Below are positions 2,540-33,912 of a stretch of DNA of 40,804 bases, piece by piece. Origin of the DNA: a virus (taxonomy: Duplodnaviria > Caudoviricetes); the IMG/VR virus record IMGVR_UViG_3300009095_000030, positions 1 through 40,804 of that record; one strand, given 5' to 3'. A program made the translations under genes and the position numbers. A model generated the notes under the pieces. The model ran no database searches and was not told the DNA's origin. It saw only the letters and a program-made list of their open reading frames with translations. Every line of letters starts with the position of its first letter. The stretch's first letter is position 1.

Positions 2540-3103
2540 TTGCCCACCACTGCTATCGGCGGTGCCCCGTACCCGGCGCCCGAGGACGCCGACAACGTCC
2601 CCGCGGACATGCAGGCCCTAGCCGAATGGGCGAGCACCCGCGGCGTCATGCGGTTCGCCGACGCCGCCGCCCGGGACGCGGCCATCACCAGCCCCGACGC
2701 GGGCATGGTCGCGTGGCTCGACACGCCAGGCTCGCTCACCGTCCGCACCGCCTCCGCATGGCGCACCCTGTGGTCCAGCCTTGCCTGGACCGACCTCACC
2801 CTCTCCTCCGGGTACGAGACCTATGGCAGCACGCCACGCGCCGCAGTCGAGGTCGGACAGTTCATTACCCTCCGGGGCGGCATCCAGCGGAACACCAGCG
2901 CCCAGATCGCCACCGGCTCCACGATCGCCACCATCCCCTCGGCACTCGGCACCCCCGTCTCCGGCGACTTCCCCATTGCAGTGCAGTGGTCTGGTGACGT
3001 GCCGACCGGGCGCCTCTACGTCGGAGCCGACCGCACCCTGCAGTACATCGGCGACTCCACCAACTGGATCGCGCTTAACGGCGTCCGTATCCCCCTCGCC
3101 TGA
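2540..3103 (+). CDS. Minor tail protein
   Basis: GAGGAGG RBS; FADAAARDAAITSPDAGMVAWL motif common in actinophage tail proteins. Confidence 0.7.
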   Translation: MPTTAIGGAPYPAPEDADNVPADMQALAEWASTRGVMRFADAAARDAAITSPDAGMVAWLDTPGSLTVRTASAWRTLWSSLAWTDLTLSSGYETYGSTPRAAVEVGQFITLRGGIQRNTSAQIATGSTIATIPSALGTPVSGDFPIAVQWSGDVPTGRLYVGADRTLQYIGDSTNWIALNGVRIPLA

Positions 3104-3113
3104 CAGGAGCAGC

Positions 3114-4958
3114 ATGCGCTACCAGTACGGCTCGGACGGCGGCAGCGTCGTCACCGACGCCGCGGGCAACGTGGTGTCCAGCCGGCCGGGCACGGTGTGG
3201 ACGGCCCGCACCGGCGGCTCCCAGGTCACCGACATCCTCACCCTCGCGGGCACGGCAACCGGCGGCACCGTCACCACCGACAGCAAGGGGCGAATCGCCT
3301 TCCAGGGGCCGGACGGGGCAACCGCCACCCTGTGGTGGGACGGCGGCGACGGCACCCGGTGGGCTGTCCTGCCCACCGAGACCGACCGCATCGCCCGCGC
3401 CCAGGTCGACACCTACGGCGTACCGTCCTCCGCGCTCGGCTCCGCCAGCGGCGTCGCCACACTCGACAGCGGCGGCAAAGTCCCGGCGGGCCAGCTGCCC
3501 GACCTGTCGGCGTCCTACGTGCCGTACCCGGCGGGCGGGCAGGCCGGCGACACGCTCATCCGCGGGGCGGGGAGCACGGTGTCGTGGGGGCGTCTCACCG
3601 CGGGCACCGTCGCACCCTGGTCCGGGCTGGACGCGCTGACCGCGCCGCGCTGGATCGCCCACCGCGGCGGCAGCCTCCTCGCGCCCGAGAACACGATCGA
3701 AGCGATGCGCACCGCGGTGGAGCTGGGCGCGGACGCGATCGAGCTGGACGTGTACAAGGTCGCCGACGGCGGCTTGTTCGTCATGCACGACTCGACCGTC
3801 GACCGCACGTCGAACATCAGCGGCACGACGTCGGCGCTCACCGTCCCGGCCGCGCTGCGCGGCCGCATCGACGCGGGCGTGTGGTTCGCGAACACGTGGC
3901 CGAGCGACCTGCGCATCCCGCTCTTCGCGGACGTGCTCGCCGACATCGGCAACCGCATCCCGATGATCGTGCACTGCAACAACGCGGGCAGCGGCGCCGC
4001 TGCGGTCGCCGAGATCCAGCGGCAGGAACTCGACCAGGCCGTGCTCATCATGGCGTGGACCGAGGCCGAACTCGTGGCCGCCCGCGCCGCGGGCATCCCC
4101 ACCTGCCTCCTCGACGCCGACGGCGTCCTGTCCGGGCAGACCTACGCCGGGCTCATCGCCGCAGGCACGACCTATCTCGGCGTCGACTATAGCCAGACCA
4201 CCAACACGACCATCAACAACGCCGCGGCGGCCGGGCTGCGCGTGCTCGTCTACACCGTGAACCGGCGCACCAACTACGCGGCCCTGCCCACCACCGGCAG
4301 CGTGTGGGGCGTCATCTCCGACGACCCCTGGTACCTGAAGGCGCCCGGGCAGATGCGCACCACGGACCTCTTCAGTGCGGGCACCTTCTACCACGGCATG
4401 CCCGGCATCACCGACGCCGCCGACTACAGGGGTTTTTTCCAGCTGGGGAGCCCGAACTGGTTCGGCCTCGACGCTTCCGGTACGAACCTGGCCTCGAACG
4501 GCGGCTACGCGTCCACGATGCAGGGCTACCTCGGCCCGCTGCCGAACACGTTCACCCTCGACTGCGACTTCGTCATCGACGCCTCGGACTACACGACCGC
4601 CTCGGCCCAGTGGACGTTCACGAAAGGCGACGTGCAGTACGACGACGACACCACCGGCACGACCGCGAAGAACGACGGCTACAACATCCTCGTGCGCGCG
4701 TCCGGCACGATCGACGTCTACAAGGTGGCGGGCGGCACCGCGACCAGCATCGGCACCGTGTCGACGGCGGCGATCACCGCGGGCACCACACAGCACCTGC
4801 GGATTCAGTTCACCGCGACGCAGATCATCGTCACCCGCACGAACATCGCGACCCCGAACTCGGTCACGGTCACCGACTCCACCTACCGGGGCGGGCTGTA
4901 CCCGCACCTGGCCGTCCGCGACACCAAGACGAGGTGGGCGAACGTCGCCCTCACCTGA
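3114..4958 (+). CDS. Tail fibre/spike-like protein with glycerophosphodiester phosphodiesterase (GDPD) domain
   Basis: AGGAG RBS before ATG 3114; IAHRGG..APENT, ELDV, MHD..VDRT, YTVN, GVISDDP motifs; GVATLDSGGKVP fibre linker; beta-rich C-terminus. Confidence 0.85.
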   Translation: MRYQYGSDGGSVVTDAAGNVVSSRPGTVWTARTGGSQVTDILTLAGTATGGTVTTDSKGRIAFQGPDGATATLWWDGGDGTRWAVLPTETDRIARAQVDTYGVPSSALGSASGVATLDSGGKVPAGQLPDLSASYVPYPAGGQAGDTLIRGAGSTVSWGRLTAGTVAPWSGLDALTAPRWIAHRGGSLLAPENTIEAMRTAVELGADAIELDVYKVADGGLFVMHDSTVDRTSNISGTTSALTVPAALRGRIDAGVWFANTWPSDLRIPLFADVLADIGNRIPMIVHCNNAGSGAAAVAEIQRQELDQAVLIMAWTEAELVAARAAGIPTCLLDADGVLSGQTYAGLIAAGTTYLGVDYSQTTNTTINNAAAAGLRVLVYTVNRRTNYAALPTTGSVWGVISDDPWYLKAPGQMRTTDLFSAGTFYHGMPGITDAADYRGFFQLGSPNWFGLDASGTNLASNGGYASTMQGYLGPLPNTFTLDCDFVIDASDYTTASAQWTFTKGDVQYDDDTTGTTAKNDGYNILVRASGTIDVYKVAGGTATSIGTVSTAAITAGTTQHLRIQFTATQIIVTRTNIATPNSVTVTDSTYRGGLYPHLAVRDTKTRWANVALT

Positions 4959-6753: not shown

Positions 6754-6769
6754 CTGTGCCATCCTGAAG

Positions 6770-6846
6770 AAGCGGGTAGCTCACCGGGTACAGAGCAGCC
6801 GGGGTCACACCCGGCATGGACGTCGGTTCGACTCCGGCCCCGCCTC
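6770..6846 (+). tRNA. tRNA-like element with non-canonical anticodon loop (identity uncertain; possibly pseudo-tRNA)
   Basis: Cloverleaf: acceptor AAGCGGG/CCCGCCT (1 mismatch), TA, D stem GCTC/GAGC, anticodon stem GCCGG/CCGGC with 8-nt loop GGTCACAC, T arm GTCGG-TTCGACT-CCGGC; no encoded CCA. Confidence 0.7.
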
Positions 6847-6851
6847 GCGGC

Positions 6852-7351: not shown

Positions 7352-8371
7352 GTGACCGGCCTCGTCCCGCGCCAGCCGGACGCCACCCCCGCCGCCTACG
7401 ACGCTGCGACGCTCGCCGTCCTGGCCGCCATGGAAGAGGCAGCCGAGAAGCACCTCGAAGCCATCCGCCCCCACAACACGAAGCGCAGCTACGCCAACGA
7501 CTGGGCGCTGTGGGAGGAGTTCCACGACTGGCTTGCCGAACGCACCGGTAGCCGCCTGCCGTCGACCGCTGTCACGAAGGGTACGCTCGTCGGGTTCGTC
7601 GTCTGGCTCGACACCATCAAGCTCGCCGCACCCAACAGCATCGACCGCAGGATCACCGGCGTGACCGTCACCGCGCGGAACGAGCACGGCGTCGAAGTCC
7701 CCAAGGCGGCTACCGTCGCCGCACGCCAAGTCCTCAAGCCGCTGAAGAACGACCCCGAACGCATGGCGCGCGGACGTGGCAAGGCCGCAGCCGCCACCCC
7801 CGAACAGCTCCGACAGATGAACGCGTCCGTCGCCGACGGACTCACCGGGCTCCGCGACCGCGCCCTCTGGCTCATGGCCTTCGCCATCGCCGGACGCTCC
7901 GCCGAAGTCGCCGCCCTCCGCGCCGAGGCCATCGTCCACGTCAGCCAGGGCCTCGAAGTCCACGTGCCCGCAGTCAAAGGCCGCCCGCCCCGCGACGTCG
8001 TCGTCGGCTACGGCCGCAACCCCGACACCTGCCCGGTCCGCGCCTGGCTCACCTGGCGCGCCGCCGTGGGCATCACTACCGGCCCCGCCTTCCTGCCCAT
8101 CACCGTCCATGGCCGCCTCGGCGACCGTGCGCTCTCACCCGAAGCCGTCCGCGAGATCATCGCCCGCAACGCCCAACGCGCCGGTTTGTCCGTCCGCCTC
8201 ACTGGCCACAGCATGCGAGCCGGATTCATCACCACAAGCCGGCGAGCCGGGAAGCGCGAAGAGAAGATCCGCGCACAGTCCGGACACGCCGCCAACAGCC
8301 CCGCCTTCTGGGGCTACATCCGCGAAGCCGACAAGTGGACCGACGCCGCATCGGAGGACATCGGGCTGTAA
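7352..8371 (+). CDS. Second tyrosine recombinase, Cre-like resolvase type
   Basis: NTKRSYANDW SAM-like N-terminus; RDRAL...GRSAEV (catalytic R), CPVRA, GHSMRAG (HxxR), SGH and YIR (catalytic Y). Confidence 0.9.
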   Translation: MTGLVPRQPDATPAAYDAATLAVLAAMEEAAEKHLEAIRPHNTKRSYANDWALWEEFHDWLAERTGSRLPSTAVTKGTLVGFVVWLDTIKLAAPNSIDRRITGVTVTARNEHGVEVPKAATVAARQVLKPLKNDPERMARGRGKAAAATPEQLRQMNASVADGLTGLRDRALWLMAFAIAGRSAEVAALRAEAIVHVSQGLEVHVPAVKGRPPRDVVVGYGRNPDTCPVRAWLTWRAAVGITTGPAFLPITVHGRLGDRALSPEAVREIIARNAQRAGLSVRLTGHSMRAGFITTSRRAGKREEKIRAQSGHAANSPAFWGYIREADKWTDAASEDIGL

Positions 8372-10782: not shown

Positions 10783-11019
10783 TCAGCGAAGGAGGTCGGT
10801 GACGTGTACCCCCAGCACCTGGGCGATGCGCAGGAGCGTGCTGATGCGGGCGTCAGCAGTGCCGGCTTCGACGGCTTGGTATGCGGATCGGCTCACCTCA
10901 GCGGCCAGGAAGACGGACTCCTGAGTGCGGTTCTGGCGGAGGCGTTCGATGCGAATGCGGTCGCCGATGGCGCGGCGCTCGCGGGCGAGCCACTCGTCGT
11001 CATCGGGCAGGGTCGGCAC
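10783..11019 (-). CDS. XRE-family HTH regulator
   Basis: IGDRIRIERLRQNRTQE...VSRSAYQAVEAG....ISTLLRIAQVLGV. Confidence 0.85.
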   Translation of the reverse strand: MPTLPDDDEWLARERRAIGDRIRIERLRQNRTQESVFLAAEVSRSAYQAVEAGTADARISTLLRIAQVLGVHVTDLLR

Positions 11020-11106: not shown

Positions 11107-11124
11107 GCCTGGCATATGCCAGGC
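11107..11124. promoter_or_regulatory. Perfect 18-bp palindrome, putative operator
   Basis: GCCTGGCATATGCCAGGC between the XRE gene and a TAGTGT -10-like hexamer (11134-11139). Confidence 0.55.
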
Positions 11125-11145
11125 ACTTGGGTGTAGTGTCCATGC

Positions 11146-11294
11146 GTCGAACGCGTGTTCGAGCTATGCGTGGTCGCCCGACAGGCCGGCGACCACGAAA
11201 GGCGTGTCGACGGGCTGCAATCGGTCGCCCCCCTTTGTGGCCGTCGACGCGAGCGCTCCCCCCGCCCTGCTCGGGAGGGGGGAGCATGCTTTTG
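11146..11294 (+). ncRNA. Putative SOS-inducible structured antisense RNA
   Basis: Three hairpins (11169-11197, 11203-11251, 11255-11285 plus TTTT); 15-nt identity with 13168-13182 and 8-nt identity with 13154-13161. Confidence 0.5.
11147..11162. promoter_or_regulatory. LexA (SOS) box
   Basis: TCGAAC-GCGT-GTTCGA, perfect actinobacterial consensus. Confidence 0.85.
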
Positions 11295-11420
11295 TGGGAG
11301 ATCCCTGGGAGATGATCATGCGGAAGCAACCCAAAGCAATCCAGAGGAACCCGGCGTAACCGGGTGGCTTTGCCCAGTGATTCCGGCAGCCCGGCTACAC
11401 CCCGCTGGTAGTACACCTAC

Positions 11421-11509
<89 letters not shown>

Positions 11510-11601: not shown

Positions 11602-12891
11602 TCAGGCGCTGCCTGGGAGATTTCCGGGAGATCGTTTTCTCCTGGGGGTGAGTGGCGGATACGGGCCGAACTCGCGCCGGTCAACCACGACCCTCTGCGA
11701 GGCCTCCCACAGGCGCTGCAGCTGATCGGCGATGGCAAGCTCCATCTTCAGGGTGACATGCGAGTAGGTGCCTTCGACACCCTGCAGCACGTGCCCCATA
11801 CGCGCCTCGACCGCCACCCGCGGGTGGCCTCCCTCATCGAGCCACACCTTGTGACTGTGCCGCAGGCCGTGCGGCGTCAGGCCCTCCACCCCCAGTACGG
11901 GACGGAGGCCGGTCCGGGGAGTCACGTGCAGGGCGGATTCCCGCGGTGCACGCCCCCTGACCATCGGCTGCCAGACGGACGTGTACCAATCCCCGCCCCG
12001 GAGGAGCCGCCCCCCCCTCGGGGCCGTGAACACCCACTCGGTCTTCGGCCGGGAGTCGACGAGTTCCCGCAGCAATTCCGCCAGGAAGGGCGGCAGGATC
12101 AGCCCTCGCTCGGAGGCGTACTTGTTCTCGACCTCGCGGAACTTGCCCTCGATGTACTGGGACTGCTGCACGGTGTGCAGCCGGGCGCCGGTGCCGTTGT
12201 CGTCGAGGGTGAGGTGGTCTCTGTGCAGGCCGGCCAGCTCACCGATCCGCAGACCGGTGTAGGCGGACGTGAGGACGATCGCGAACTCATTGAGACCCCA
12301 GGCCTCAAGCCCGTGCCTCGCGATCAGCAGCACCTGGCGGGGTGTGGCGAAGGCCCGCTCGTCCCGAGGCTTGGGCTGATAGCGGCCCCGGCGTCCCGTC
12401 CTGCGCGGCGCCACCGGATTGTCGCTGCGGATCCGCTCAACGACCGCGTCGGCCAGCATGGTCCGGAACGTCCCGATGACGGCGTCGACGTAGTTCGCCG
12501 ACAGCCTGGACCGCAGCTCCTTCTCCCAGGAGGCGATCGCCGCAGGGGACAGATCACCGACGGCGACATCACCCCACTGGGGCAGGATCCTGTTCTTCAG
12601 CCGGGCCCTGTACTCCCTTTCGGTGAGGGGTCGCACGTCGATGGACGCCAGCCACTTCTCGGCCCACTCGGCGACGGTGATGCGGCCGTCGCGGGGGTCG
12701 ATGAACTGCTTGCGCCGCACGTCGACCTCGAGGCCGTGCGCGTACTGCTCCGCGGCCCGCTCGCTGTAGAAAGGCTGCCCGTGCTCGTCGCGGGATACCG
12801 ATCCCCAGTGGCCGTTGGGCAGCTTGTAGCGGCCCCGGTAGCGCCACTTGCGGGCCCGCTTGTCGTAGGTGCGCTTCTCCCCATACGCCAT
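11602..12891 (-). CDS. int: Tyrosine integrase
   Basis: N-terminal arm-binding region, SAM-like domain, AYTGLRIGEL, HGLRHSH, RMGH, TYSH catalytic motifs; adjacent to attP. Confidence 0.95.
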   Translation of the reverse strand: MAYGEKRTYDKRARKWRYRGRYKLPNGHWGSVSRDEHGQPFYSERAAEQYAHGLEVDVRRKQFIDPRDGRITVAEWAEKWLASIDVRPLTEREYRARLKNRILPQWGDVAVGDLSPAAIASWEKELRSRLSANYVDAVIGTFRTMLADAVVERIRSDNPVAPRRTGRRGRYQPKPRDERAFATPRQVLLIARHGLEAWGLNEFAIVLTSAYTGLRIGELAGLHRDHLTLDDNGTGARLHTVQQSQYIEGKFREVENKYASERGLILPPFLAELLRELVDSRPKTEWVFTAPRGGRLLRGGDWYTSVWQPMVRGRAPRESALHVTPRTGLRPVLGVEGLTPHGLRHSHKVWLDEGGHPRVAVEARMGHVLQGVEGTYSHVTLKMELAIADQLQRLWEASQRVVVDRREFGPYPPLTPRRKRSPGNLPGSA

Positions 12892-12915: not shown

Positions 12916-13161
12916 TCAGCCTGTCACTGTCCGCAGTGTGGAGTACACCTCGTCTGCGTCGAGCCGGCGCCGCCCGGAGGTTGCGGCGTTGAACGCCTGC
13001 TCCAGGGCCTCGACGCCGGTGCTGGCGATCAGCCCGGCGTCGATGTACAGGGTGTGCTCACCGCTGTCGCGGCCCTCGATGATCCAGACCTGGACGCCGA
13101 ACGGCATCCCTACCACGGCATGTACGCGCACAGGCATGGGTCCCCCAACGACCGCGACCAC
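12916..13161 (-). CDS. Small hypothetical protein between repressor and integrase (alternative ATG start at 13137)
   Basis: AAAGGGGGG RBS 8 nt before in-frame GTG 13161; GGGGGA before ATG 13137. Confidence 0.6.
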   Translation of the reverse strand: MVAVVGGPMPVRVHAVVGMPFGVQVWIIEGRDSGEHTLYIDAGLIASTGVEALEQAFNAATSGRRRLDADEVYSTLRTVTG

Positions 13162-13247
13162 TGCAGGCGCCCCCCTTTGTGGTGCCGGTATCAGACCACA
13201 GTTCGCCGAGTTGCGGGAGGGTTTGTGTGCAAGTTGTGTGTATCTGA

Positions 13248-13784
13248 TTACGAGCCGTTGACTGCTGAGCGGTCCGGCTCCTCGGGCAGTCCATGCAGCC
13301 GGCTCTCGGCGCGACGCCAGGCGAGGAGCGCTTTCTGAATCTCTTCCGGGGTGGCGTCCGGCTGGCCGTGCACGACGACGGTCATGCGTACCCCCTCGGC
13401 GCCCGGGAGGTGGATGACGGCGGAGTCGAGCAGCGGGTCGTCGCTTTCCAGCTCGTCGACGATCCGTAGGGGCAGCTTGCCTCGCAGCCGGCTTTCCTCG
13501 CCGTGTCCTGCGGAGCCGGCGGGCGCGGCAGCCGGGGTGGCCTCGCCGCCGCGGAGTATGGCCAGCCCTGAGCCCCTGGCCCAGCCGAGGTGGGGCTCGA
13601 CCTTCGCGAGTGACGGGGGGACGCGGGACGGCCGGCGCGTCGGGTCTTCGAGGTTCTGGACGCTCCCCTCGCTGATGCCTGCGAGGTCCGCGAGGGCGAC
13701 CTGCGACAGGCCGCGCGCCTCGCGGGCCGCGCGGACAGCGGCGGCGAGCTTTGGCCAGAGCAGATTGGTCCGGTCCTCTGTCAT
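13248..13784 (-). CDS. Immunity repressor (XRE HTH)
   Basis: VRAAREARGLSQVALADLAGISEGSVQNLE; divergent from Cro-like gene. Confidence 0.85.
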   Translation of the reverse strand: MTEDRTNLLWPKLAAAVRAAREARGLSQVALADLAGISEGSVQNLEDPTRRPSRVPPSLAKVEPHLGWARGSGLAILRGGEATPAAAPAGSAGHGEESRLRGKLPLRIVDELESDDPLLDSAVIHLPGAEGVRMTVVVHGQPDATPEEIQKALLAWRRAESRLHGLPEEPDRSAVNGS

Positions 13785-16997: not shown

Positions 16998-17127
16998 CCG
17001 CCTGATCCACAACCCCATACGGCCGCGTCGAGCGCCCCCACGCTCCGCGGCACCCGGGGCCAGCTCCCTGGCACCCCCCCCCGTCCGGGGAGCTGGCCCT
17101 CCCTCAGCACACCCTCAGGAGCCTCAC

Positions 17128-28978: not shown

Positions 28979-29392
28979 TCAGCGCGGCAAGACCTCGTCG
29001 AGGTACTCCTGCACCGGCCCGAACAGGCCGTAGGGCACGTACTCGGCGATCTCCCCGTGGGACACCCAGGCGACCGCGTCCAGCTCCTCGTTATCCGCGA
29101 CCCGGGCCTCGCCCTCGACGACCTCGCACGCCGTGTACGACATCGCCCGGCCCGTCTTCGGGTGCACGCGCTCGCCGAGCAGTCGGACCGCCTTCACCGT
29201 CAGCCCCGTCTCCTCGCCGGCCTCCCGCACGGCCGCCTCCTCGGCGCCCTCGCCGGGCTCGATCGCACCTGCGGGGAACTGCCACATCAGCTCGCCCTCG
29301 GAGACGCGGCGTCGCACCATCAGCACCTTCCCGTCGGCCACGATGATCGCGGCGCTGATGCCCGGCTTCTCGGTGGTCGTCTCGGTCGTCAT
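28979..29392 (-). CDS. Nudix hydrolase
   Basis: Canonical Nudix box GAIEPGEGAEEAAVREAGEETGL. Confidence 0.92.
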   Translation of the reverse strand: MTTETTTEKPGISAAIIVADGKVLMVRRRVSEGELMWQFPAGAIEPGEGAEEAAVREAGEETGLTVKAVRLLGERVHPKTGRAMSYTACEVVEGEARVADNEELDAVAWVSHGEIAEYVPYGLFGPVQEYLDEVLPR

Positions 29393-31699: not shown

Positions 31700-32119
31700 A
31701 TGACCGAGTCCCTTGAGGCCATCCGCTACACCGCCGACGTCGTCGTCACCACGACCGACGGCCACGTGCTGCTGATCGAGCGGGGCTGGGAGCCGTTCAA
31801 GGGCCAGTGGGCGCTGCCCGGTGGCTACGTCGACCCCGGCGAGACCAGCCGCGCCGCCGCCGCCCGCGAGCTGGCCGAGGAGGCCAGCGTGTACGCGGCC
31901 CCCGAGGAGCTGACGCAGGTCGGCGTCTTTGACCAGCCCCACCGCGACCCCCGCGGCCGGTTCGTCACCGTCGCCTACCAGCTGACCGTGATCTCCGGGC
32001 TGCCCATCAAGGCCGGTGACGACGCCACCCGCGCCGAGTGGTGGCCGCTGAGCGACCTGCCGCCGCTCGCGTTCGACCACGCCGACATCATCCGCGCCGC
32101 CGTGGCGGCCAGCCACTGA
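31700..32119 (+). CDS. Nudix hydrolase (AICE-type, Pif/NrtR-like)
   Basis: WALPGGYVDPGETSRAAAARELAEE, RDPRGR, AGDDA, LAFDH. Confidence 0.92.
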   Translation: MTESLEAIRYTADVVVTTTDGHVLLIERGWEPFKGQWALPGGYVDPGETSRAAAARELAEEASVYAAPEELTQVGVFDQPHRDPRGRFVTVAYQLTVISGLPIKAGDDATRAEWWPLSDLPPLAFDHADIIRAAVAASH

Positions 32120-32628: not shown

Positions 32629-33912
32629 GTGACCGCCACGTCGATCGAAAAGGCCAACGGCCACGCCGTGGCCGAGCGCGGCTTCGACGCCGTCGCGCTG
32701 GCCAAGGCGGAGGCGATCCGAACCGAAGCCGCCGCCAAGGCCGAAGCCCTCCGTATCAAGGCGCAGGGTGAAGCCGAGGCCGAGAAGATCCTCGCCGCCG
32801 AGAAGGCCGAGAAGGAGCGCATCGCCAACGAGCGCGCCGCCATGCGCCTGGAGAAGGAGCGCGCCGACCACGTCGCGCACCTCGCCAAGAAGGAAGCCGA
32901 GGCGGCCAAGGCGCTCGCCGAGAAGCAGAAGACCGAGCAGGCCACCGCCGACGAGGCGGAGCGGCAGGCGCAGCAGCTGGCAGAGCAGGAGCGCAGCGAG
33001 AACCTGTGGAAGTGGGGCGCCCGCGGCATCTACCTCGTCGGCCTGATCATCGCCGCCCCGGTGCAGTTCATGCACTTCTGGGACCGCGAGCGGCCCTTCC
33101 TCGTCGCTGCCCCCGCCCTGCTCGAAGGGCTCGCCCTCGTCCTCGCGGCCGGCGCTGCCTGGGCAGTCGCCCACCGACGGGACGTCCTGCCCTACCGGAT
33201 CGGCATCATGCTCAGCGCGATCATCGCTGCCGCGATCAACATGTACGGCGGCATGACCGACGACCGGATCGGCTTCAACGCCGGTCTGATCGGCGCCATC
33301 GCCTCCCTGGGCGGGCCCATCGTGCTCATGGCCTACGAGCACGGCATCGCGCAGAAGGCCGACGGCATCCCGTCCTGGCGGGAGCGCCGGGCCGCTGAGC
33401 GGAAGGCGGCTGAGGAGAAGAAGGCGCGCGAGAAGGCCCGCCGCGAGAAGGCGGACGCCGAGGCGGCTGCCGAGGCAGCCAAGGCGCTCGCCGAGGCCCG
33501 TGCGCTGGAGGAGCAGAAGCGCAAGGACACGGACCGGCAACAGCACCACCCCGAGGTGTGGAAGGTCGCCGAGGCGATGCGCTCGGCCCGCGGCTCCCAG
33601 TACGTCACCGAGCAGATCTGGGCCGACGCCTGGTACCGCGTCACCGGCTCCAAGACAGTCGGCATCACCCCCGAGATCGAGGAGCTGACGCAGGCCGCGC
33701 AGTTCCGGATGCGGGCCGTCACCGAGGCCCCCATAAGGGGTGACTTCTCGCTGGTCGAATCCCAAAAGGTCACCCACTCGAAGAAGGACCCCGACGCCCC
33801 CGACGGACGCCGCAACAACGGCGGCACCCCGCCCGTCCGTAGGCCCGGCCAGACCGCCCCGCTCCACCCCATCGCCCGCAAGCAGGCCGCCCTCGAACAG
33901 AAGAAGGACTGA
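32629..33912 (+). CDS. Coiled-coil, four-TM membrane protein (SpdB2-like architecture)
   Basis: A/E/K-rich coiled coils flanking about four hydrophobic helices; directly upstream of TraB-like gene. Confidence 0.7.
   Translation: MTATSIEKANGHAVAERGFDAVALAKAEAIRTEAAAKAEALRIKAQGEAEAEKILAAEKAEKERIANERAAMRLEKERADHVAHLAKKEAEAAKALAEKQKTEQATADEAERQAQQLAEQERSENLWKWGARGIYLVGLIIAAPVQFMHFWDRERPFLVAAPALLEGLALVLAAGAAWAVAHRRDVLPYRIGIMLSAIIAAAINMYGGMTDDRIGFNAGLIGAIASLGGPIVLMAYEHGIAQKADGIPSWRERRAAERKAAEEKKAREKARREKADAEAAAEAAKALAEARALEEQKRKDTDRQQHHPEVWKVAEAMRSARGSQYVTEQIWADAWYRVTGSKTVGITPEIEELTQAAQFRMRAVTEAPIRGDFSLVESQKVTHSKKDPDAPDGRRNNGGTPPVRRPGQTAPLHPIARKQAALEQKKD

What the first reader, a model, noticed from the sequence alone, without database searches (positions are those of the whole stretch)
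11107..11294. LexA-boxed structured RNA complementary to the RBS and start codon of the gene upstream of int
Seen: an 18-bp palindrome, a TAGTGT -10-like hexamer and a perfect SOS box precede ~150 nt with three hairpins ending in a GC stem plus TTTT. This segment shares CGCCCCCCTTTGTGG (11226-11240 = 13168-13182) and GCGACCAC (11189-11196 = 13154-13161), in the same order and with CTGCA between them in both places. On the minus-strand repressor-orf-int transcript those positions read CCACAAAGGGGGGCG (Shine-Dalgarno-like) and GTGGTCGC (in-frame GTG start of 12916-13161). The C-rich part falls in the loop region of hairpin 2. Inference: a trans-acting, DNA-damage-induced antisense RNA that silences this gene (possibly a lysogeny maintenance or integration factor), conceptually like the P1/P7 C4 antisense RNA but wired to host LexA. 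After integration the RNA gene and its target would sit at opposite prophage ends, so it must act in trans.
Basis: partly seen in the sequence, partly recalled or inferred. Interest (0 to 1): 0.85.

Follow-up and report, generated by a model that had tools for sequence, protein, structure and literature searches.

The report
DNA-damage RNA switch in Streptomyces prophages
Streptomyces temperate phages carry a conserved, hairpin-rich non-coding segment behind a host DNA-damage (LexA) box whose loop stays complementary, changing in step, to the leader of a small gene at the other prophage end; it is likely a small RNA made on DNA damage that pairs with that leader and, on the best guess, would switch on a protein that wakes the prophage.

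Summary
The element is real and conserved. The window is a Streptomyces-type temperate phage fragment. The LexA box, -10 hexamer, C-rich hairpin and terminator recur in relatives (box in 25 of 28 copies). The C-rich loop co-varies with a G-rich hairpin in the leader of the 72-aa gene between repressor and integrase. In 25 pairs, 431 of 450 cells pair (413 Watson-Crick, 18 G-U). Six further RNA copies, found from the promoter pattern alone, match their own prophage's leader 53-80 kb away. Integrated copies lie at opposite prophage ends, so any pairing is in trans. The RNA pairs about 20-45 nt upstream of the start, not on the Shine-Dalgarno. The GCGACCAC match is window-specific. The sign of regulation is unresolved: folding is split. 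I favour activation of an antirepressor-like protein (0.45) over silencing of a lysogeny factor (0.35). No expression data were found and the protein's function is unknown. No Rfam family matches, and none of ten literature searches showed the system. Nearest known: LexA-controlled antirepressors, lambda OOP and P1 C4.

The parts
10783..11019 (-). Small XRE helix-turn-helix gene, divergent from the RNA; probable binder of the palindrome (inference)
   Evidence: Pfam HTH_3; present beside the RNA promoter in relatives
11107..11124 (.). 18-bp palindrome over a -35-like TGGCAT; its 10-bp core GGCATATGCC is conserved; probable operator (inference)
   Evidence: core in 20 of the 25 boxed copies
11134..11139 (+). 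-10-like hexamer TAGTGT, 7 nt before the box
   Evidence: TANNNT at that spacing in 17 of 25 boxed copies
11147..11162 (.). LexA (SOS) box at the predicted transcription start
   Evidence: consensus from PMC9380542 passages; 25 of 28 copies
11146..11293 (+). Predicted small RNA, about 148 nt (ends inferred); hairpin 1 at 11169-97 is window-specific
   Evidence: no conserved SD-led ORF in 14 copies checked
11203..11251 (+). Conserved antisense hairpin; pairing segment 11226-11240, extendable to about 11213
   Evidence: internal covariation, 11 of 30 pairs with two-sided changes, 0 of 500 shuffles as high; target covariation
11252..11293 (+). GC stem plus U-tail, terminator-like
   Evidence: helix 4: 6 of 12 pairs with two-sided changes; not called by the consensus terminator scan
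11420..11509 (+). att core region: 3' end of a host gene (acyl-CoA dehydrogenase by recalled motif, no call); lies between RNA and target
   Evidence: 31-98-bp direct repeat at both ends in 8 of 8 integrated prophages tested, 6 with this host gene end
11602..12891 (-). Tyrosine integrase
   Evidence: Pfam Phage_integrase, PHROG 1
12916..13137 (-). Target gene, 73 aa (family about 72 aa; tandem two-domain forms of 134-137 aa exist); function unknown
   Evidence: 113 homologues, 76 cluster representatives; no Pfam, PHROG or NCBIfam family; two-domain forms
13141..13146 (-). Shine-Dalgarno GGGGGA of the ATG 13137 start
   Evidence: conserved in the leader alignment
13157..13183 (-). Target hairpin ACCAC...G-tract...GTGGT; RNA-binding site 13168-13182
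   Evidence: stem fully paired in 29 of 32 leaders
13190..13221 (-). Conserved CCCTCC - about 15 nt - TGTGRTSTSAT, promoter-like; would start a transcript at the target hairpin (inference)
   Evidence: constant spacing with variable spacer in 33 leaders
13248..13784 (-). Phage repressor-like XRE protein; no peptidase S24 domain detected
   Evidence: Pfam HTH only

Best explanation
This is a conserved LexA-boxed non-coding element of Streptomyces temperate phages whose C-rich loop co-varies with the leader of the small gene between repressor and integrase; it is likely transcribed on DNA damage as a ~150-nt RNA that pairs with that leader in trans and would switch on translation of a predicted antirepressor-like protein. 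Shown by sequence: the box, the hairpins, the complementarity and its covariation, the opposite-end layout. Inferred, in order: (1) LexA sits on the start site and keeps the RNA off; SOS releases it. (2) The C-rich loop kisses the G-rich loop of the 5' hairpin and zips into a 17-25-bp duplex (10 bp in the weakest pair). (3) The duplex takes the GCCCG arm that, unbound, pairs with codons 3-5 and closes a stem around the Shine-Dalgarno and start codon; in two of the four two-domain leaders it strips off the arm whose partner overlaps the Shine-Dalgarno. (4) The small protein then disables the non-cleavable repressor, and the prophage is induced. Odds: steps 1-2 about 0.9; the activating sign about 0.5; the whole chain 0.45.
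For: Pairing: 25 pairs, 413 Watson-Crick + 18 G-U of 450 cells; cognate mean 17.2 paired vs 14.1 non-cognate; 0 of 100,000 permutations as high. At least six different kinds of two-sided change (GGAGGG, GCACCC, GGCCG, GGGCCAC, GGGAGGGG, CCGCGAG). Blind tests: RNAs found by the promoter pattern alone match their own leader in G005 (14-nt perfect) and G039 (11-nt perfect plus G-U), and are best or tied-best with their own leader in 4 of 4 further genomes. G-U departures outnumber A-C, 18 to 7, as expected for RNA pairing in this orientation. Box in 25 of 28 copies. One copy per positive genome with the RNA model. For activation: repressor shows only HTH families; no Peptidase_M78 gene in 0 of 5 records including three complete ones with the RNA; the RNA avoids the true Shine-Dalgarno; helix GCCCGCR:UGCGGGU is fully paired in 23 of 32 leaders; codons 4-5 are unusually fixed (CGG 25 of 27, GTT 29 of 34; other Arg and Val sites beyond codon 5: 36-59%); the same LexA cassette drives a small Cys protein instead of the RNA in L005, L096, L097 and L109. 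Precedent for LexA-controlled small antirepressors outside the immunity region: PMC3121763 (abstract).
Against: No transcript evidence of any kind. Folding does not favour activation. RBS opening cost rose in 16 and fell in 6 of 25 long leaders. In cofolds it was 14 up / 9 down for -12..+3 and 9 up / 15 down for -20..+15. It was 18 up / 12 down of 35 short leaders, with mean SD unpairing falling 0.52 to 0.42, and 2 up / 4 down of 10 divergent leaders, with SD unpairing again falling on average. The leader-CDS helix has no two-sided change, is broken in 9 of 32 leaders, and has two mismatches in the window itself. A rival helix (GACCU:RGGUU, full in 25 of 32) explains the fixed codons too. The protein's role is not shown: IrrE/ImmA likeness rests on non-significant fold rows (E 0.17-0.45) and an atlas lead for a look-alike protein (0.83), and it has no HEXXH. 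The permutation test ignores kinship, the 18 columns were anchored on the best register, and the tree leaves origins unresolved (7 of 21 branches open). Three copies lack the box (L070, L071, L084). No RNA was found in G174, G090, G131 or G392, which carry divergent homologues of the gene, and no target was found for the two RNA-like copies in G136.
Confidence: 0.45

Rival explanations
1. Same LexA-controlled trans-acting RNA, opposite sign: the duplex, extended through GUGGUC to about -12, blocks ribosome loading on the ATG 13137 gene, a co-repressor or lysogeny factor, perhaps with polar loss of int.
For: The same covariation. Duplexes often extend to GUGGUC next to the Shine-Dalgarno. RBS opening cost rises in more leaders than it falls. 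An upstream CCCUCC arm can cover the Shine-Dalgarno once the G-tract is taken. Known phage antisense RNAs mostly repress (PMC12197685 passages); lambda oop has a LexA site and its RNA cuts down CII (PMC5869508 passages).
Against: The RNA targets a separate G-run rather than the Shine-Dalgarno G-run. Stopping synthesis of a stable co-repressor is a slow way to induce (inference). No other SOS link was found for a repressor without a self-cleavage domain. OOP has at most a minor role after SOS induction (PMC2327240 passages).
Confidence: 0.35
2. The RNA pairs with the leader but acts on the transcript, not on initiation: duplex-directed cleavage or a termination switch changes the stability of repressor or integrase mRNA.
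For: The site lies about 100 nt behind the repressor stop on the same strand with no clear terminator between; duplexes of 17-25 bp; OOP works through RNase III.
Against: The promoter-like motif would put the site at the 5' end of its own transcript. One relative with repressor directly followed by int (L034/G416) has neither the small gene nor a detected RNA, which ties the RNA to the small gene.
Confidence: 0.12
3. The two copies are DNA sites for one protein (integrase arm, repressor or excisionase), kept alike by co-evolution with that protein or by gene conversion; no RNA pairing.
For: Both copies flank int and att on the circular phage; the motif holds a GGGCGCCC palindrome in many copies.
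Against: Both copies sit in hairpin loops with covarying stems. G-U-type departures exceed A-C-type 18 to 7. One copy lies between a boxed promoter and a terminator. The pair persists with other integrase subfamilies and att sites (L037, L039).
Confidence: 0.04
4. The RNA is a general C-rich anti-Shine-Dalgarno regulator of many phage or host mRNAs, and this leader is one target among several.
For: C-rich loop resembling the 16S anti-SD (sequence); other window sites give similar duplex energies.
Against: Flanking bases track each phage's own leader over 11-21 nt; the runner-up window site is not at a credible gene start.
Confidence: 0.04

Closest known systems
LexA-controlled small antirepressors of Salmonella Gifsy-1/-3 (GfoA, GfhA) (PMC3121763, abstract read)
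   Same: Repressor without a detected self-cleavage domain; SOS input through a LexA-controlled locus outside the immunity region acting in trans.
   Different: Here the boxed locus is non-coding; the candidate effector gene sits beside the repressor and would be controlled through its leader; binding to the repressor is untested.
Lambda OOP antisense RNA (PMC5869508 and PMC2327240, passages read)
   Same: Phage small antisense RNA with a LexA site at its promoter, bearing on lysis versus lysogeny.
   Different: OOP is cis-encoded over cII-O and works through RNase III; this RNA is encoded apart, pairs over 17-25 nt in a 5' leader, and may activate.
P1/P7 C4 antisense RNA (PMC12197685 and PMC8201110, passages read)
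   Same: Short-seed pairing to a leader; sequence variants matched between RNA and target could give phage specificity like P1/P7 heteroimmunity.
   Different: C4 blocks antirepressor synthesis to keep lysogeny; it is not described as LexA-controlled in the passages read; no Rfam match here.
ImmR-ImmA-Int modules (ICEBs1 type; recalled, plus search listing)
   Same: Gene order repressor - small gene - integrase; weak fold hints towards IrrE/ImmA N-terminal strands.
   Different: The small protein has no HEXXH and no Peptidase_M78 match; it would not be a protease.
Plasmid kissing-loop RNAs (CopA/CopT, Inc) and anti-antisense activators (DsrA/RprA on rpoS) (recalled, no call)
   Same: Mirror-image hairpins with complementary loops; possible release of a self-inhibiting leader.
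   Different: Here trans-encoded, phage-borne, behind a LexA box, in Actinobacteria.

Membership tests
LexA (SOS) regulon member | SOS box fitting tCGAAC-N4-GNNCGa at a promoter | tested here: met
   (25 of 28 copies; 7 nt behind a TANNNT in 17 of 25)
LexA (SOS) regulon member | LexA binds and DNA damage induces the transcript | not testable with these tools
   needs EMSA/ChIP and RNA-seq
Trans-acting base-pairing small RNA | Own promoter-terminator unit, conserved structure, no conserved ORF | tested here: met
Trans-acting base-pairing small RNA | Complementarity to a separately encoded mRNA kept by compensatory change | tested here: met
Trans-acting base-pairing small RNA | Transcript exists and alters target expression | not testable with these tools
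   no suitable RNA data laid
C4 antisense RNA family (Rfam) | Match to the covariance model | tested here: not met
   no Rfam match at gathering score in the window; only sub-threshold miRNA rows in five relatives
C4 antisense RNA family (Rfam) | Represses an antirepressor operon by pairing near a ribosome binding site | tested here: inconclusive
   site is upstream of the Shine-Dalgarno; sign split
Lambda OOP-type RNA | Cis-encoded, fully complementary to its target | tested here: not met
   RNA and target are 1.9 kb apart on the circle and 53-90 kb apart when integrated
Gifsy-type LexA-controlled antirepressor system | Repressor lacks a self-cleavage domain | tested here: met
   HTH families only
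Gifsy-type LexA-controlled antirepressor system | The LexA-controlled gene encodes the antirepressor protein | tested here: not met
   no conserved ORF behind the box in 14 copies checked; protein cargo occurs only in other prophages
Gifsy-type LexA-controlled antirepressor system | Small protein binds the repressor | not tested
   no complex prediction was obtained; the queue was full
ImmA/IrrE (Peptidase_M78) antirepressor | HEXXH motif and family match | tested here: not met
ImmA/IrrE (Peptidase_M78) antirepressor | Shared N-terminal fold | tested here: inconclusive

The most novel reading that the evidence does not exclude
An RNA relay between the host SOS response and prophage induction: a LexA-released small RNA from one prophage end unlocks a self-silenced leader at the other end to make a new family of small non-proteolytic antirepressors. 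The RNA is a swappable cargo of a LexA promoter cassette that other Streptomyces prophages fill with a small Cys protein, and its co-varying loop sequences form address codes that decide which co-resident prophages it can induce.
Probability: 0.4. Interest if true: 0.9.

Novelty: new variant of a known kind. Interest (0 to 1): 0.78.

Why it matters
How prophages with non-cleavable repressors sense DNA damage in Streptomyces is largely open; I found no account of it in the searches listed. This gives a concrete, testable circuit (one RNA, one 40-nt leader, one 72-aa protein) in named cultured strains (L027-L031, L033, L035-L039). It adds an RNA family absent from Rfam with unusually clear RNA-target covariation across tens of kilobases. 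Either sign is of interest: an activator would be a phage SOS-to-antirepressor RNA relay, a repressor a trans-encoded counterpart of lambda OOP. The natural RNA-leader pairs may also serve as orthogonal riboregulators for Streptomyces engineering.

Tried and rejected
No DNA relative among 50,697 annotated phage records; integrase relatives there were all under 60% identical. Single-protein locus searches with the small ORF found nothing. Rfam: nothing at gathering score, only sub-threshold miRNA rows. The GTG start and a conserved upstream ORF were rejected (frames 0/1/2/none = 2/7/22/1 of 32). A peptide encoded by the RNA was rejected. The 33110 repeat (sense, inside a CDS) and the 17015-17054 duplex site (opposite strand of lytic genes, no credible start) were set aside. 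Profile comparison with the L005 look-alike was weak (probability 3%). Four folding analyses did not settle the sign. Expression: no RNA holder listed for L067; four runs laid did not cover the RNA; this is no evidence either way. The complex prediction of small protein with repressor could not be run because the queue was full. RNA model R1 missed G004, G005, G011, G013, G415, G337, G416, G418; R2 found nothing in 10 genomes, including G004, G005, G142 and G039 where patterns later found the RNA, so model misses are weak evidence. A strict leader pattern found nothing in 5 genomes. The 2-mismatch hit in G337 (L092) was not inspected. A loose box score of 8 of 10 was uninformative (65 of 185 background windows). 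Samy (PMC11302927, passages) is a serine-integrase phage and not this system. Earlier scan findings: none. Literature searches, none showing this system; subscription papers are largely outside the library, and no supplements were read.

Full report
Setting. The window is a 40.8-kb, 70.8% GC virus record, about 55% complete. It has an amidase, YqaJ/RecT, a methylase and DnaB. All 13 genome relatives of its integrase are in Streptomyces. The lysogeny region reads, on the minus strand, repressor (13248-13784), a 73-aa ORF (12916-13137) and a tyrosine integrase (11602-12891). Then come the 3' end of a host gene (att region, about 11420-11509), the finding, and a small divergent XRE gene. The name acyl-CoA dehydrogenase for the host gene is recalled from its motif, not from a call.

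Observation. Everything listed is present. The box is unique in the window and fits the Streptomyces consensus tCGAAC-N4-GNNCGa (PMC9380542, passages). The segment folds with z -5.5. Taken alone the 15-mer is borderline: 99 of 2000 shuffles give one, a second 15-mer exists in sense orientation, and an unrelated site pairs almost as well in a duplex scan.

Relatives. Locus searches gave 63 loci; 51 of 64 sequences, the window included, carried the small ORF by a profile search. Duplicates of one contig, and L040 (the window itself), were dropped. A covariance model from 14 copies found one copy in each of 12 of 20 further genomes or records. In integrated prophages the RNA lies 115-153 nt inside one att repeat and int at the other; 8 of 8 tested had a 31-98-bp repeat at both ends. 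The RNA's own structure covaries: 11 of 30 pairs have two-sided changes, 0 of 500 shuffles reach this, and slid controls fall to 38-56% paired (the structure was derived from these sequences). The box is present in 25 of 28 copies, a TANNNT 7 nt before it in 17 of those 25, and the palindrome core in 20.

RNA-target covariation. For 25 pairs (20 distinct), 18 columns anchored on the G-tract gave 413 Watson-Crick, 18 G-U, 7 A-C and 12 other cells. Cognate pairs averaged 17.2 paired columns and non-cognate 14.1; 0 of 100,000 permutations reached the cognate total. The test ignores kinship and the register was chosen as the best one, and a repressor tree of 24 rows leaves many origins open. But the changes are of at least six different kinds, each made on both sides. 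Two more pairs were found with a pattern built from the target, so the match is by construction, though box and terminator came unasked. The strongest test was blind. A pattern for the box plus first hairpin hit 14 of 401 Streptomyces genomes and G005. In G005 the downstream loop is a 14-nt perfect complement of that prophage's own leader, and in G039 an 11-nt one extended by G-U pairs. In four of five further genomes a homologous repressor lay 53-77 kb away on the same contig. Each RNA loop paired best, or tied best, with the leader behind its own repressor, and these leaders precede tandem two-domain forms of the same small protein. G136 gave no repressor and no target. No RNA was found in G174, G090, G131 or G392, which have divergent homologues of the gene. 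L034/G416, where repressor is followed directly by int, has neither gene nor detected RNA.

Corrections. The conserved start is ATG 13137 with GGGGGA 4 nt before it; the GTG is in frame in 2 of 32 leaders and is better explained as the 3' arm of a hairpin, full in 29 of 32. The G-tract ends 25-33 nt before the ATG, so the RNA does not cover the Shine-Dalgarno. The window's hairpin 1, with GCGACCAC, is not shared by relatives; there the equivalent extension comes from GGCCAC in hairpin 2. A CCCTCC ... TGTGRTSTSAT motif with constant spacing looks like a promoter that would start a transcript at the target hairpin; this is inference.

The target protein. A family of about 72 aa with no library match. 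A homologue folds confidently as three strands and two helices (pLDDT 88), but fold searches are not significant; IrrE and metallopeptidase rows recur at E 0.17 or worse. It has no HEXXH, and no Peptidase_M78 gene was found in five records. None of 102 window ORFs scanned in Pfam matched an antirepressor or S24 family (102 of 255 listed ORFs, and the record is incomplete). Binding to the repressor remains untested.

Sign. Four folding analyses are split (counts in the Against line). For activation: a leader-CDS helix enclosing Shine-Dalgarno and start codon, whose 5' arm the RNA takes, is full in 23 of 32 leaders, and codons 4-5 are unusually fixed; in G275 and G197 the target hairpin's base overlaps the Shine-Dalgarno; the repressor has no detected self-cleavage domain; and the same LexA cassette carries a small protein instead of the RNA in four other prophages, as if either were the SOS output. 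Against: that helix has no two-sided change and is partly broken in the window; a second helix explains the same codons; and mean Shine-Dalgarno accessibility falls when the site is taken. I commit to activation of an antirepressor-like protein at 0.45 and give repression of a lysogeny factor 0.35.

Comparison. It works like the Gifsy scheme, a LexA-controlled locus outside the immunity region acting in trans (PMC3121763, abstract), but the boxed locus is non-coding, so it is not a member. Lambda oop has a LexA site (PMC5869508, passages) but is cis-encoded and of minor effect after SOS induction (PMC2327240, passages). C4 pairs by short seeds and keeps lysogeny (PMC12197685, PMC8201110, passages); there is no Rfam match. 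PMC13760530 and PMC11302927 (passages) had nothing on it. Ten searches (listings, with passages or abstract read for the eight papers named) showed no description of this system; subscription papers and supplements were not seen.

Verdict. Real, conserved and probably undescribed; a new variant of SOS-wired phage regulation. RNA-leader pairing is strongly supported by sequence. Expression, sign and the protein's role are untested. Interest 0.78.

Noticed in passing
L005:9511-9750 (-); also L096, L097, L109: The same palindrome, -10, LexA box and first hairpins lead to a small Cys-containing ORF (79 aa in L005) with a good Shine-Dalgarno instead of the antisense hairpin; no family match for the L005 protein. 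A candidate directly LexA-controlled antirepressor.
   Followed up: partly
L005:7323-7769 (+): The gene between repressor and integrase is a 148-aa look-alike of the small protein; atlas neighbours are Actinomycetota unknowns, nearest named lead IrrE N-terminal-like at 0.83; profile match to the family weak.
   Followed up: partly
L111-L114 (G275, G197, G040, G195), behind the repressor: 134-137-aa tandem two-domain members of the small-protein family, under leaders matched by their own RNA.
   Followed up: yes
window 7352-8371 (+): A second tyrosine-recombinase gene behind the lysis genes.
   Followed up: no
window 11297-11320 and 11608-11632: TGGGAGAT-type repeats on both sides of the att core, conserved behind the RNA in relatives; likely integrase arm sites.
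   Followed up: no
L070, L071, L084: RNA copies that keep complementarity but lack the LexA box pattern; the partner leaders of the first two (L033, L035) have also lost the leader-CDS helix.
   Followed up: partly
L022:9707-9760; L058:2483-2635: The small gene has an early stop (after 17 and 50 codons) while its leader is kept.
   Followed up: no
L037/L068 and L039/L067: These prophages use a different att site and an integrase 51-55% identical, yet keep RNA and target.
   Followed up: yes
L100, L110 (G136); L103 (G075): Two RNA-like copies in one genome with no repressor homologue found; a boxed copy in G075 with terminator but no clear C-rich loop.
   Followed up: partly
window 2781-4958 (+); 28979-29392 (-); 31700-32119 (+): A tail-region protein with a GDPD domain and two NUDIX genes on opposite strands.
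   Followed up: no
window 6769-6848 (+): ARAGORN calls a tRNA-like element with no valid anticodon.
   Followed up: no
window 33110-33124: Exact 15-mer shared with the RNA's terminator arm, sense strand inside a CDS; probably chance.
   Followed up: yes
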